Source: Candidatus Bathyarchaeota archaeon (GTDB lineage Archaea; Thermoproteota; Bathyarchaeia; 40CM-2-53-6). Taken from it: a stretch of DNA of 64,000 nucleotides. The stretch covers positions 320,001 to 384,000 of the forward strand of contig CAVPLU010000004.1 of the NCBI GenBank assembly GCA_963706285.1, in the 5' to 3' direction. A program made the translations under genes and the position numbers. Under the pieces are notes generated by a model. The model was not told the DNA's origin. It was given only the letters and a program-made list of their open reading frames with translations, and made no database searches. Of the stretch, positions 55,396 to 58,300 are shown piece after piece. The first letter of the stretch is position 1. Every line of letters starts with the position of its first letter.

Positions 55396-58300
55396 TACGC
55401 CACCTGGCGGATGGCTTGGCTCGGGCGCTGAAGAAGGGCGTGGCAAGCTGCGATAATGCTCCGGGTAGGCGCATGCAGCCTTCGATCCGGAGATACCCGA
55501 ATGGGACTTCCCTGCCACGGGTGATACCTGTGGCACTCCCATATGGGAGGGGGAACCCCCTGAACGGAAACATCCTAGTAAGGGGAGGAAGAGAAACCAA
55601 ATAGGATTCCCTTAGTAGCAGCGAGCGAAAGGGGAAGAGTCCAAACCGAACCTGCATGGGAAACCGTGTAGGGATGTGGGGTTGTAGGGCCCGACTGCGT
55701 TCTCGCGCGTGAAGTCGAAGTGGTCTGGAACGGTCTACCATAGAGGGTGATAGCCCCGTAGACGTAAACGCGCAGGATTTGGGTTGGGGTCCCTGAGTAC
55801 CACGCCTCGGCTTTGGCGTGGGAAACTGGGAGAAAGCAACTTCCAAGACTAAATACGACCCAAGACCGATAGCGCACTAGTACGGTGAGGGAAAGCTGAA
55901 AAGTACCCCGGAAGGGGGGTGAAAAGAGCCTGAAATCAGGTGGTTATAGACGTGTACGGCCTGAAAGGGTAGATCCCCTCGAAAGGAGACCGTGGTAACG
56001 CGGCAGTACGACGAGGGGGGACCAGAGTCGTACGTTCAGTTTCGAACCACTGGCCGGGGAGTTCATCTTCGTGGTGAGGCTAAGGGCGTAAAGCCCGAAG
56101 CCGTAGGGAAACCAATTGTCCGCAACGCCGCAAGGCGCGAGGGACGAGATCTGAAAGGGTCTGGAATCACGGGGATGAGACTAGAAACCAAGTGATCTAG
56201 CCTGGGCAGGGTGAAGCCGGGCGAAAGCCCGGTGGAGGCCCGAAGGGGTGTTGACGTGCAATTCACTCCTCTGACTTGGGGCTAGGGGCAAAAGACCAAT
56301 CTAACTTGGTGATAGCTAGTTCCCGCCGAAATATCTCTCAGGATAGCCTGGCTGGAGGTTGCCAATGGGGTAGAGCACTGATTGGAAAACAAGGACCCGA
56401 AAGGGTCCACTTTCCTTTCAAACTCCGAATCCATTGGCGCCGTAGAAGGCCGGAGACGGGCATGGGGCGTAAGGTCCTATGTCGCGAGGGGAACAACCCC
56501 GACTGGGGTTAAGGTCCCCAAATCCTGACTAAGTGTAGAAATAGAAAGCTGTCCTCAACCAGAGACAGCTGGAAGGTAGGCTTAGAAGCAGCCATCCTCC
56601 AAGCAGTGCGTAACAGCTGACCAGCCGAGGTTGGGGGCGCCGAAAATAAACGGGGCTAAGTCAGGTACCGATACCCTAGAGCACGATTCATAATCGTGTT
56701 GGTAGGCGGGCGTTCTGGTTGGGTGGAAGCTGGGTTGTGAAATCCAGTGGACCGGCCACAAGTGTAGATCCCGGTGGAAGTAACAGCATAGAGGGGTGAG
56801 AATCCCCTCCGTCGAAAGGGCAAGGGTTCCCCGGCAATGCGTCGTCAGCCGGGGGTAAGTCGGTCCTAAGGCAAGCCTTAACCGAGCTTGTCGAAAGGGA
56901 AACCGGTTAAAATTCCGGTACTACGGAGGTACATGCGGCAACGCAAGCCTTCGATCTGACGCTTCGGGATAGGTCGAGCAGGGTCGTCGCCCTGTTTAAC
57001 CGTTGAAATCCGGGGAGTACCGTAATGGTGAGAACCGGATGAAGAAGGGAATAGCCGCCCGTTTTAGGGCGGTTCGAGCTGATTCCTGGAGCCAATGAAA
57101 AGGGTCGGAGGATGGATCCTCCGTGTCCGTACCTAGATCCGACACAGGTGCCCCTAGGTGAGAAGCCTAAGACGTATCGGGTGGAACTCAGGCGAGGGAA
57201 CTCGGCAAATTAGCCCCGTAACTTTGGAATAAGGGGTGCCTGAAGCTCTAGCTTTGCTGGGACGACAGGTCGCAGTGACAAGGGGGAGGCGACTGTTTAA
57301 TAAAAACATAGGGGACCGCTAGCCCGAAAGGGTGTGTACGGTCCTTGAATCCTGGCCAGTGGCGGTACCTGAAACTTGGGTTCAACCGAGCTAAGGGCCG
57401 CTAAACGCCGGGAGTAACTCTGACTCTCTTAAGGTAGCCAAATGCCTTGTCGGGTAAGTTCCGACGTGCATGAATGGATCAACGACCCCCCCGCTGTCCC
57501 CGCCTGGGGCCCGGTGAACCCACATAACCTGGACGAACAGTCCAGGATCTTCCAGCGGGGCGAGAAGTCCCCGTGGAGTTTTACTGCAACTTGTCGCTGG
57601 GATGTGATTGCGGGTACAGAGCGTAGGTGGGAGCCGTTAAGGTCGACCTCTTCGGGGGTCGATGGAGGCAACAATGTAACACCACCTATCTGTGATTACA
57701 TCTCTAACTGGACCAAAATGTCCGGGACAACGGCAGGTGGGCAGTTCGGCTGGGGCGGCACCCCCTTGAAAAAATATCAAGGGGGCCCAAAGCTCGGCTC
57801 ATCCGGGACAGAAACCCGGAGTAGAGGGCAAGACCAAAAGTCGGGCTGACTGGATCCTCATCAGCAAGGGATCCAGAGGCGAAAGCCGGGTCTAGCGATC
57901 ATTCATGTCCCCATTGTTGGGGGCTGGATGTGACAGAAAAATTACCCCGGGAGTAATTGGCTCGTCTCCTCTGAGAGTCCCCATCGACGAGGAGGATTGG
58001 TTCTCCGTCGTCGTCCCTTCCCATCCTGGGCCCGCAGCAGGGTCCAAGGGCGCGGCTGTTCGCCGATCAAAGGGGAATGCGAGATGGGTTTAGACCGTCG
58101 CGAGACAGGTCGGACTCTACCTGCTGGAAGTGCTGGTCGCCTGAGGGGAAGGCGCCCCTAGTACGAGAGGAACGGGGTATCGTAGCCTCTAGTTTACCGG
58201 TTGTCTGACAGGGCACTGCCGGGCAGCCACGCTATCGAGGATAAGGGCTGAAAGCATCTAAGCCCGAAGCCTCTCCCGAAAATAGGCGGCCAATCCTTAT

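What the first reader, a model, noticed from the sequence alone, without database searches (positions are those of the whole stretch)
57561..58120. Extensively rewired peptidyl-transferase centre in 23S rRNA
By-eye alignment to E. coli numbering: A2062U (57568), G2447A, A2448G, C2452U, A2453U (GGGAGTAATTGG at 57949-57960 against GGGGATAACAGG), A2497U, C2499U, U2500C, A2503U, U2504C (58001-58010), C2573U and bacterial-type C2055. A2450, A2451, G2505, U2506, U2585, A2602 and the P- and A-loops are intact. Changes covary at known contacts (2062 with 2503, a 2452/2504 swap, 2453 with 2500, U2509-A2579, U2073-A2436), which argues against error. Several match single mutations that give linezolid, anisomycin or chloramphenicol resistance in haloarchaea and bacteria. 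A divergent PTC has been described in Pyrobaculum; this combination may be an independent variant with an altered A-site cleft and tunnel entrance.
Basis: partly seen in the sequence, partly recalled or inferred. Interest (0 to 1): 0.85.

Follow-up and report, generated by a model that had tools for sequence, protein, structure and literature searches.

The report
Rewired ribosome catalytic centre in Bathyarchaeia
The only large-subunit ribosomal RNA gene of this uncultured archaeon carries a fixed set of about a dozen changes around the ribosome's otherwise nearly invariant catalytic centre, a natural alternative design related to, but distinct from, the one recently described in Pyrobaculum.

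Summary
First-shell catalytic bases and the P and A loops are unchanged.

It is not an error. This is the genome's single 23S, and all 32 genomes of the same order that cover the region carry the same core. Record titles call the lineage Bathyarchaeota or Bathyarchaeia.

Of 1023 columns invariant in 23 canonical relatives, the order changes 25. Eleven lie in the PTC shells and 7 in helix 89.

Most other Bathyarchaeia families are canonical. A few carry partial sets, and a neighbouring clade carries nearly the whole set.

The published divergent archaeal PTC (Nissley et al. preprint: Thermoprotei, Methanomethylicia) shares G2447A, U2500C and U2504C. It has A2453C and C2501A, and its text mentions no change at 2452, 2499, 2503 or 2062.

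Three ribosomal proteins reject one clade for both types (AU p 0.018).

Verdict: a real, lineage-wide, apparently unreported variant of a known kind. Drug insensitivity and altered tunnel sensing are inferred only.

The parts
55383..58440 (+). 23S rRNA gene, full length, the only copy in the genome
   Evidence: Rfam RF02540, 2811 bits, model 1-2987; one match in the 2.13-Mb assembly
57561..57569 (+). 5' strand of the domain V central loop: C2055, A2057, G2058, G2061 kept, U2062 (57568), C2063 kept
   Evidence: U2062 in 28 of 28 order rows
57952..57958 (+). A-site cleft strand: A2447, G2448, U2449, A2450, A2451 (kept), U2452, U2453
   Evidence: identical in 32 of 32 order genomes
57967..57993 (+). 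Helix 89 stem rewritten with compensated changes (E. coli 2462, 2464-2466, 2484, 2486, 2488); specific to the order
   Evidence: stem letters visible
58002..58009 (+). 3' strand of the central loop: U2497, C2498, U2499, C2500, C2501 (kept), G2502 (kept), U2503, C2504
   Evidence: within the order 2497 is U or A and 2503 is U or C
58014..58017 (+). Helix 90, 5' strand: U2509 (pairs with A2579), C2511 (opposite A2577, non-standard pair), C2512
   Evidence: Rfam structure line and non-canonical flag; pair counts
58077..58084 (+). Helix 90, 3' strand and second shell: A2572 kept, U2573, G2574, A2577, A2579
53672..55198 (+). 16S rRNA gene of the same operon
   Evidence: Rfam RF01959, 1468 bits

Best explanation
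The window holds the single rRNA operon of a Bathyarchaeia archaeon. Its 23S rRNA encodes a working ribosome whose peptidyl-transferase centre keeps the first-shell catalytic bases. The second shell, around the A-site cleft and the tunnel entrance, is rebuilt by a fixed, coupled set of substitutions.

Shown:
- The set is U2062, A2447, G2448, U2452, U2453, U2499, C2500, U/C2503, C2504, U2509-A2579, C2511 and U2573.
- It is invariant across the whole order and is the only 23S in near-complete genomes.
- Helix partners change together: 2509-2579 goes from G-C to U-A, 2454-2498 from G-C to A-U, and 2512-2574 from C-G to G-C.
- Position pairs 2453/2499, 2452/2504 and 2447/2500 switch as sets.

Inferred:
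- The A2453.C2499 wobble is replaced by U.U. Relatives have G.U or U.G there.
- The C2452/U2504 contact is swapped to U/C.
- G2447/U2500 becomes A/C.
- The two tunnel-entrance purines A2062 and A2503 become pyrimidines.
- Together these would give a differently packed but catalytically competent centre.

Likely consequences, from single-mutant work in Halobacterium, Thermus and E. coli:
- low affinity for inhibitors that bind the A-site cleft and PTC (sparsomycin, anisomycin, chloramphenicol, linezolid, pleuromutilins);
- a wider, less sensing tunnel entrance.

This 'U2452/U2453 type' is a relative of the published Pyrobaculum/Methanomethylicia 'C2453/A2501 type', not a member of it.
For: Reality and function:
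- Full-length RF02540 match and one copy only, on a 478-kb contig.
- Same core in 32 of 32 order genomes covering the region: 28 genomes, G036 and G145, G034 and G035. These include genomes 96-100% complete with one 23S match (G023, G039, G265).
- 27 of 31 named records holding the exact 21-mer have the order-type helix 89. U2062 is present in 26 of them and the 27th is cut short.
- Catalytic bases and the A and P loops are intact.
- Changes cluster in the PTC and helix 89.

Coupling (68 archaeal sequences):
- 2509/2579: G-C 26, U-A 41, G-U 1.
- 2453/2499: A.C 27, U.U 30, U.G 5, C.C 5, G.U 1.
- 2452/2504: C/U 25, U/C 35, C/C 8, U/U never.
- 2447/2500: G/U 26, A/C 39, A/U 2, G/C 1.

Intermediates among relatives:
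- f27: A2503C only.
- f25 and f31: A2503U plus U2504C.
- f29 and f26: heavy partial sets.
- L043: a further mosaic.

Literature on single changes:
- (PMC13462262, passage): C2499U, C2452U, U2500C.
- (PMC7345174, passages and tables): C2452U, G2447A.
- (Nissley preprint discussion).
- (PMC7049736 passages): A2062U keeps 94% of activity and gives macrolide resistance.
- (Kent et al. 2026 preprint, abstract): A2062U relieves a tunnel constriction and improves polyproline translation.

Distinct from the published type.
Against: - No read-level or rRNA-level confirmation.
- No structure, activity or drug data exist for this haplotype. All functional consequences are extrapolated from single mutations in other ribosomes, and their effects need not add up.
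- 2062 and 2503 vary independently in several lineages, so a specific U2062-U2503 contact is not supported.
- uL3, the protein nearest 2504 and 2572, shows no consistent co-change. The order has P[HSN][YF]V after the conserved W in most members, but the neighbouring clade with nearly the same rRNA haplotype keeps the canonical W.P[SA]RV.
- The own assembly has indel-type breaks in essential genes (uL3, aIF5A), so it is not error-free. The substitutions are nevertheless replicated in other assemblies.
- Counts over related genomes are not independent events.
Confidence: 0.85

Rival explanations
1. Compensated neutral drift. The set accumulated because archaeal ribosomes tolerate second-shell changes: each step was nearly neutral or was compensated by the next. 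It brings no adaptive change in drug sensitivity or tunnel function.
For: - Partial and mosaic states exist in several lineages.
- Single sites such as A2062U and A2503C/U occur alone in otherwise canonical families (f17, f39, f46, f27).
- A2062U is nearly neutral in E. coli in vitro.
- The Nissley preprint reports that haloarchaea tolerate A2453C, U2500C and U2504C, which E. coli does not.
Against: - The same combination is frozen across a whole order and nearly so in a second clade.
- At least six of the changes coincide with laboratory-selected inhibitor-resistance mutations.
- This rival concerns cause rather than structure. It does not conflict with the ribosome being altered.
Confidence: 0.3
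2. It is simply the published divergent archaeal PTC (Pyrobaculum calidifontis / Methanomethylicia type), inherited from a common ancestor, so nothing new.
For: - Shared states: A2447, (G2448), C2500, C2504, C2055, U2509-A2579.
- Same phylum.
- The preprint's GTDB-wide alignment would contain these sequences, and its Figure 2a and supplemental files could not be seen.
Against: - 2453 is U, not C, and C2501 is kept.
- U2452, U2499, U2503, U2062 and U2573 are additional changes. The A loop keeps U2554 and U2555. uL3 keeps W and its length.
- McrA-bearing families f41 and f62 (taken as Methanomethylicia) carry the C2453/A2501 type or only U2500C plus C2501A.
- On uL3+uL4+uL23, one clade holding both types is rejected (AU p 0.018), and canonical Bathyarchaeia families lie between them.
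- The preprint text has 0 hits for 'Bathyarchae', '2062', '2503' and '2448'.
Confidence: 0.1
3. Adaptation to very high temperature, as proposed for rare rRNA sequences of hyperthermophilic Thermoprotei.
For: The published divergent PTCs were described under the heading of hyperthermophilic archaea. Some records with the haplotype come from MAG series that also hold hot-spring-like names.
Against: - The 23S has 57% G+C, and the order-specific helix 89 stem became less G+C-rich.
- Near-identical sequences stand in wetland, peat, soil, groundwater, lake and sediment runs.
- The A-loop U2554C/U2555C change tied to thermostability is absent.
Confidence: 0.05
4. Artefact: a pseudogene, a chimeric or misbinned contig, or sequencing error.
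For: - The assembly is a MAG (89% complete, 7.5% contamination) with frameshift-like breaks in uL3 and aIF5A.
- Three records with this rRNA are titled as bacteria, i.e. misbinned.
Against: - Full-length, high-scoring rRNA on a 478-kb contig.
- Identical core in 32 of 32 order genomes from many assemblies, several on contigs over 1 Mb.
- Compensated helices.
- No other 23S in the genome.
Confidence: 0.02

Closest known systems
Divergent PTC of Pyrobaculum calidifontis and other Thermoprotei/Methanomethylicia (Nissley et al., bioRxiv 10.1101/2024.11.12.623245; I read sections 6 and 7 and searched passages. The Nat Microbiol 2025 version is not held)
   Same: - A natural, lineage-wide departure from the conserved PTC in Thermoproteota archaea.
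- Shared: G2447A, U2500C, U2504C, also A2448G in some, C2055, and U2509-A2579.
- First-shell bases are kept.
- Overlaps with inhibitor-resistance mutations.
   Different: - Here 2453 is U (not C), and C2501 and the C2063-A2450-C2501 triple bases are kept. G2061 is also kept.
- Extra changes: C2452U, C2499U, A2503U, A2062U, C2573U, U2511C and a rewritten helix 89.
- The A loop keeps UU.
- The uL3 tip keeps W and its length, whereas the C2453/A2501-type lineages lack W and all but one (f54) are one residue shorter.
- The host is a Bathyarchaeia order found in soil, peat and wetland rather than a hyperthermophile.
- One clade for both is rejected at p 0.018.
Laboratory-selected single PTC mutations in Halobacterium halobium and Thermus thermophilus (PMC13462262 passage; PMC7345174 passages and tables)
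   Same: C2452U, C2499U, U2500C and G2447A are the very substitutions found here. They lie at the sparsomycin, anisomycin, chloramphenicol and tiamulin sites.
   Different: Those are single changes selected under drug, often with fitness cost. Here at least eleven changes are fixed together in nature with compensating partners, and no drug phenotype has been measured.
Engineered E. coli A2062U ribosome (PMC7049736 passages; Kent et al. 2026 preprint, abstract and passages)
   Same: Same base change at the tunnel entrance. In E. coli it keeps 94% activity, gives macrolide resistance and eases polyproline translation.
   Different: Natural and fixed, in an archaeal context, combined with A2503U/C. 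aIF5A is still encoded in 5 of 5 order genomes tested.
Neighbouring clade f42/f47/f53/f57 (unnamed GTDB families of another class by the tool's labels)
   Same: Nearly the whole set: U2062 (not in f47), A2447, U2452, U2453, C2504, U2509-A2579, C2511, U2573; C2500 in all but f57 and U2503 in all but f47.
   Different: 2499 is G in f42, f47 and f53 (a U.G pair with 2453), 2448 is A in f42 and f53, and helix 89 is canonical. Whether it shares the origin is open (AU p 0.196 on 23S and 0.264 on proteins).

Membership tests
Archaeal LSU rRNA (Rfam RF02540), working gene | Full-length match above the gathering score | tested here: met
   2811 bits against a gathering score of 50, model 1-2987
Archaeal LSU rRNA (Rfam RF02540), working gene | First-shell PTC bases and the P and A loops conserved | tested here: met
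   G2061, C2063, A2450, A2451, G2505, U2506, U2585, A2602, G2251-G2253, U2552-U2555 unchanged
Archaeal LSU rRNA (Rfam RF02540), working gene | No other, canonical copy that could supply the ribosome | tested here: met
   One match in the own assembly, which is 89% complete; one match in relatives 96-100% complete (G023, G039, G265)
Archaeal LSU rRNA (Rfam RF02540), working gene | Present in RNA | tested here: inconclusive
   10 runs recorded as RNA hold 63-76% of the sampled words.
Pyrobaculum calidifontis-type divergent PTC (Nissley et al.) | G2447A, U2500C, U2504C | tested here: met
   57952 A, 58005 C, 58009 C
Pyrobaculum calidifontis-type divergent PTC (Nissley et al.) | A2453C | tested here: not met
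   57958 is U in 28 of 28 order rows
Pyrobaculum calidifontis-type divergent PTC (Nissley et al.) | C2501A, which breaks the C2063-A2450-C2501 triple | tested here: not met
   58006 is C; C2063 and A2450 are kept
Pyrobaculum calidifontis-type divergent PTC (Nissley et al.) | A-loop U2554C/U2555C | tested here: not met
   The A loop reads CUGUUCG as in E. coli
Pyrobaculum calidifontis-type divergent PTC (Nissley et al.) | uL3 tip shortened relative to the usual form | tested here: not met
   15 of 15 order uL3 keep W and the full loop length. The five C2453/A2501-type rows lack W, and four of them (all but f54) are one residue shorter.
Pyrobaculum calidifontis-type divergent PTC (Nissley et al.) | Host in Thermoprotei or Methanomethylicia | tested here: not met
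   26 of 31 records with the exact 21-mer are titled Bathyarchaeota or Bathyarchaeia. No McrA in the own genome.

The most novel reading that the evidence does not exclude
A second natural architecture of the ribosome's catalytic centre (U2452/U2453/U2499 with pyrimidines at 2062 and 2503) arose independently of the Pyrobaculum type. It was assembled stepwise, with living intermediates, inside Bathyarchaeia and their nearest kin. It operates in abundant mesophilic soil, peat and sediment archaea. Such ribosomes would lack the A2062/A2503 nascent-chain sensor and be intrinsically insensitive to several classes of PTC inhibitors. They would offer a ready-made evolutionary path through sequence space that is lethal in E. 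coli.
Probability: 0.45. Interest if true: 0.8.

Novelty: new variant of a known kind. Interest (0 to 1): 0.62.

Why it matters
The PTC is the textbook example of near-universal conservation. C2452, for instance, is listed as 100% conserved in the table of PMC7345174. One natural exception, Pyrobaculum, was notable enough to prompt a cryo-EM structure.

This is a larger and different exception:
- at least 11 changes at positions invariant in canonical relatives;
- fixed in a whole order of Bathyarchaeia, with near-identical sequence in wetland, peat, soil, groundwater and sediment runs;
- partial states preserved in sister lineages.

What it offers:
- a natural series for asking which second-shell contacts are truly required for catalysis, and in which order lethal-looking changes can be made;
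- a test of whether environmental archaea are intrinsically insensitive to PTC-binding natural products;
- templates for ribosome engineering, since A2062U alone already eases difficult monomers in E. coli.

A practical point: filters that discard rRNA hits with unusual conserved-site bases as pseudogenes could drop these lineages.

Tried and rejected
- The Nat Microbiol version of Nissley et al. is not held. The supplement of PMC7049736 is unreadable, so per-mutation activities for C2452U, A2453U, U2504C and the others could not be read.
- The search of earlier findings by words and by sequence gave nothing relevant.
- I asked whether uL3 co-changes explain tolerance. An aromatic residue after W.P is common in the order. 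It is absent from the neighbouring clade with nearly the same rRNA and present in some canonical families, so I rejected it as a required partner.
- I asked whether the neighbouring variant clade is Methanomethylicia. McrA was found in 0 of 5 of its genomes, while f41 (31 of 32) and f62 carry McrA and have the other PTC type. Rejected.
- Single origin of the window type in the order plus the neighbouring clade: not rejected and not shown (AU p 0.196 on masked 23S; 0.264 and 0.125 on proteins). The 23S backbone is unresolved, and the order is drawn to the long E. coli branch.
- The first strict pattern missed 41 of 80 genomes because of flank variation. A looser one was used, where only 150 of 200 matches were listed.
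- Literature searches for a prior report: 'Bathyarchae' + 'peptidyl transferase' gave 3 papers, none on PTC variation. Also searched: 'archaeal ribosome' + 'divergent active site', 'A2062U', 'C2452U', and the 2023 NAR paper, which has 0 hits for these positions.
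Full report
**What is in the window.** Rfam finds an archaeal rRNA operon on the + strand. The 16S lies at 53672-55198. A full-length 23S lies at 55383-58440 (RF02540, 2811 bits, model 1-2987). An RNase P RNA sits just behind it. The window is G000:C4:320001-384000 of a 2.13-Mb, 21-contig assembly that is 89% complete with 7.5% contamination. 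The domain V stretch occurs once in it, and contig C4 is 478 kb.

**Checking the observation.** I took E. coli K-12 rrlH (2904 nt) as the numbering standard. A first E. coli copy was 2 nt longer and was dropped. MAFFT and the Infernal alignment to RF02540 agree. The window has these states:
- C2055 (57561), U2062 (57568)
- A2447, G2448 (57952-3)
- U2452, U2453 (57957-8)
- U2497, U2499, C2500 (58002, 58004-5)
- U2503, C2504 (58008-9)
- U2509 (58014), C2511 (58016)
- U2573 (58078), A2579 (58084)

G2061, C2063, A2450, A2451, C2501, G2502, G2505, U2506, U2585, A2602 and the P and A loops are unchanged. A2057-U2611, G2058 and U2496 are ordinary, being shared by all 68 archaeal sequences compared.

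**Is it more than chance?** On a window-anchored alignment of 68 archaeal 23S sequences, 1023 columns are invariant in 23 sequences with a canonical PTC.
- The window's order differs in 25 of them.
- Eleven of the 25 lie in the 40 invariant columns of 2053-2063, 2447-2455, 2496-2512 and 2570-2582 (odds ratio 26, Fisher p 2e-10).
- Seven more lie in the helix 89 stem, which is rewritten with compensating changes.

The ranges were set after seeing the data and the rows are kin, so the figure is descriptive.

**Which organism.** The exact 21-mer around 2447-2453 occurs in 31 stretches of GTDB species genomes.
- 26 are titled Candidatus Bathyarchaeota or Bathyarchaeia.
- One is titled Thermoproteota and one 'uncultured archaeon'.
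- Three are titled as bacteria, which I take to be misbinned.
- 27 of the 31 have the order-type helix 89. Of these, 26 show U2062 and one is truncated.

Near-identical sequence (63-76% of 91 sampled 31-mers) stands in 20 public runs of 15 studies. These come from wetland, peat, soil, groundwater, lake, sediment and oil samples, and 10 are recorded as RNA. I could not lay reads, so this is not a base-level confirmation.

**Not an artefact.** Among relatives, every genome of the same order that covers the region has the same core.
- 28 genomes (29 sequences) come from a pattern search of 30. The two it missed, G036 and G145, are seen.
- G034 and G035 are seen.
- That makes 32 of 32.

All 28 order rows carry U2062, A2447, G2448, U2452, U2453, U2499, C2500, C2504, U2509-A2579, C2511 and U2573. 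Within the order, 2497 is U or A and 2503 is U or C. Position 2454-2498 is G-C or A-U, and 2512-2574 is C-G or G-C. The last two are clean compensatory pairs. Relatives that are 96-100% complete have one 23S match.

**Distribution in the class.** In 40 sequences from other Bathyarchaeia families, most are canonical. The exceptions are:
- f27: A2503C only.
- f25 and f31: A2503U plus U2504C.
- f29: A2447, G2453 with U2499 (a G.U pair), G2497, C2500, U2503, C2504, U2509-A2579, C2511.
- f26: C2055, A2447, U2452, U2453, U2499, C2503, C2504, U2509-A2579, C2511, U2573, with A2062, A2448 and U2500 kept.
- Part of f17: only A2062U.
- A titled Bathyarchaeia record (L043): another mosaic.

**Distribution in the phylum.** A looser pattern over 401 genomes matched in 197, and 150 of 200 matches were listed. 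Twenty fetched regions were tabulated. By eye I counted these groups:
- About 80 listed rows are canonical.
- 15 rows of family f41 have only U2500C plus C2501A.
- 15 rows have GGGA[A/G]TAACCGG with ACCCAGACG. That is A2447, with or without G2448, plus C2453, C2500, A2501 and C2504.
- 10 rows (f42, f47, f53, f57 and one stray contig) have GGGA[A/G]TAATTGG. Their 3' strands are close to the window's and their helix 89 is canonical.

McrA is present in f41 (31 of 32), f62 (4 genomes), f64 and one f14 genome. It was found in none of 5 genomes of f42/f47/f53/f57. So the McrA families carry the C2453/A2501 type, which fits the literature below.

**What is published.** Nissley et al. (bioRxiv 10.1101/2024.11.12.623245; I read the abstract, sections 6 and 7 and searched passages) aligned 23S of GTDB archaea.
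- They report variation 'at up to six positions' in 2447-2453 and 2500-2504 in certain Thermoprotei and Methanomethylicia.
- P. calidifontis has five of them. G2447A, A2453C, U2500C, C2501A and U2504C are described in the text, which also mentions A2061.
- The paper ties tolerance to a shorter uL3 tip, and reports A-loop U2554C/U2555C.
- The text has no hit for 'Bathyarchae', '2062', '2503' or '2448'.
- Its figures and supplements are not visible here, and the 2025 Nat Microbiol version is not held.

Further searches found no paper on PTC variation in Bathyarchaeia.

**How the window's type differs.** The window shares A2447, G2448, C2500, C2504, C2055 and U2509-A2579 with the published type. 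It differs as follows:
- 2453 is U, and C2501 is kept, so the bases of the C2063-A2450-C2501 triple are intact. G2061 is kept.
- It adds U2452, U2499, U2503, U2062, U2573 and C2511.
- It keeps the A-loop UU.
- Its uL3 keeps the tip tryptophan and loop length in 15 of 15 order sequences. The five C2453/A2501-type rows lack W, and four of them (all but f54) are one residue shorter.

**Origins.**
- A masked 23S tree (2327 columns) supports the order (98/90) and the f42/f47/f53/f57 clade (100/100). It leaves the backbone open and pulls the order towards the long E. coli branch.
- A uL3+uL4+uL23 tree (692 columns, LG+G4, quick search) puts all Bathyarchaeia families, the order and the f42-f57 clade in one 43-row group (SH-aLRT 97). 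The McrA/Pyrobaculum-type clade lies outside it (100).
- AU tests do not reject the order plus the f42-f57 clade as one clade (p 0.196 on 23S; p 0.264 on proteins). Adding f26 and f29 is not rejected either (p 0.125).
- AU tests do reject joining all of these with the C2453/A2501 clade (p 0.018).

The groups were named after seeing the data, and only three proteins were used. So the window's type is probably independent of the published type. Whether it arose once or several times near Bathyarchaeia is open.

**How it most likely works.** Shown, from state counts over 68 sequences:

| Positions | States seen |
|---|---|
| 2509/2579 | G-C 26, U-A 41, G-U 1 |
| 2453/2499 | A.C 27, U.U 30, U.G 5, C.C 5, G.U 1 |
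| 2452/2504 | C/U 25, U/C 35, C/C 8, U/U never |
| 2447/2500 | G/U 26, A/C 39, A/U 2, G/C 1 |
| 2062/2503 | all six combinations of A or U with A, U or C |

- The G.U and U.G states at 2453/2499 argue that 2499, rather than 2500, is the partner that matters for 2453.
- At 2452/2504, C/C occurs but U/U never does. This suggests that U2504C comes first and permits C2452U.
- Positions 2062 and 2503 are not a strict pair.

Inferred: the second shell is repacked while the catalytic bases stay in place, much as the cryo-EM work showed for Pyrobaculum with a different set of contacts.

**Predicted consequences (inferred from single-mutant work).**
- C2499U, C2452U and U2500C each give sparsomycin resistance in Halobacterium halobium (PMC13462262, passage).
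- C2452U and G2447A are scored tiamulin-resistant in Thermus. C2452U was also selected there on chloramphenicol, and C2452 is listed as 100% conserved (PMC7345174, passages and tables).
- G2447A, U2500C and U2504C are listed for anisomycin, linezolid and chloramphenicol.
- A2062U keeps 94% of activity in E. coli and gives macrolide resistance (PMC7049736, passages).
- A2062U also relieves a tunnel constriction, improving polyproline translation (Kent et al. 2026 preprint, abstract).

aIF5A is still encoded in 5 of 5 order genomes tested.

The link to high temperature is weak here. The 23S has 57% G+C, helix 89 is less G+C-rich, and the habitats are mesophilic.

**Limits.**
- There is no read-level check.
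- There are no functional data.
- The figures and supplements of the key paper were unseen.
- Deep branches are unresolved.
- Counts are over related genomes.
- The own assembly shows frameshift-like breaks in uL3 and aIF5A. These look like assembly indels and do not bear on substitutions that are replicated in dozens of other assemblies.

**Verdict.** This is a real, lineage-wide, functional-looking alternative PTC. It is a new variant of a recently recognised kind, and I found no report of it in the papers and passages I could read.

Noticed in passing
G000:C13:144979-145945 (minus strand; outside the window): The own genome's uL3 gene is split into two overlapping frames near model position 167-171. 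It is intact in 58 genomes of the class and phylum searched with the same model (29 of 30 in each), so an assembly indel is likely.
   Followed up: partly
G000:C10:173840-174252 (minus strand; outside the window): aIF5A is also in two pieces in the own genome but whole in four order relatives. This is a second sign of indel errors in this assembly.
   Followed up: no
window 58576-58861 (+): An archaeal RNase P RNA (RF00373, 183.7 bits) lies about 135 bases behind the 23S, on the same strand.
   Followed up: no
window 51617-51726 (-), 51875-52003 (+), 38703-38843 (-): Three tRNA matches of 110, 129 and 141 bases against a 71-position model, i.e. long intron-bearing tRNA genes.
   Followed up: no
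L006, L012, L014, L017 (relatives G023, G033, G031, G035), opposite window about 57428-57436: These relatives' 23S genes have inserts of about 300 to 800 bases at this point (blast pieces). A second gap in G035 lies opposite window 57814. They are probably rRNA introns; the window has none.
   Followed up: no
L155 (G009) 1476-3969; own genome C12:35990-36370 against C13: The order of the reading frames is uL3, uL4, uL23. The next frame I read as uS19 only by eye, from its start. uL2 is not between them. In the own genome uL2 sits on another contig than uL3.
   Followed up: no
order family f2 (G025, G117, G121, G218, G283), E. coli position 2058: Five of five f2 sequences have A2058 instead of the G2058 that every other archaeal sequence compared here carries.
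   Followed up: no
families f17 (part), f39, f46; E. coli position 2062: A2062U occurs on its own in lineages whose PTC is otherwise canonical. This 'conserved' tunnel base has therefore changed repeatedly in Thermoproteota.
   Followed up: partly
L032, L054, L056: Contigs carrying this archaeal 23S sit in MAGs titled as a bacterium, a Deltaproteobacterium and a Methylomirabilota bacterium. They are probably misbinned.
   Followed up: no
window 58016 and 58082 (C2511 opposite A2577): U2511C turns a U-A pair of helix 90 into C.A in all heavy-variant lineages (37 of 68 sequences), with no compensating change.
   Followed up: no
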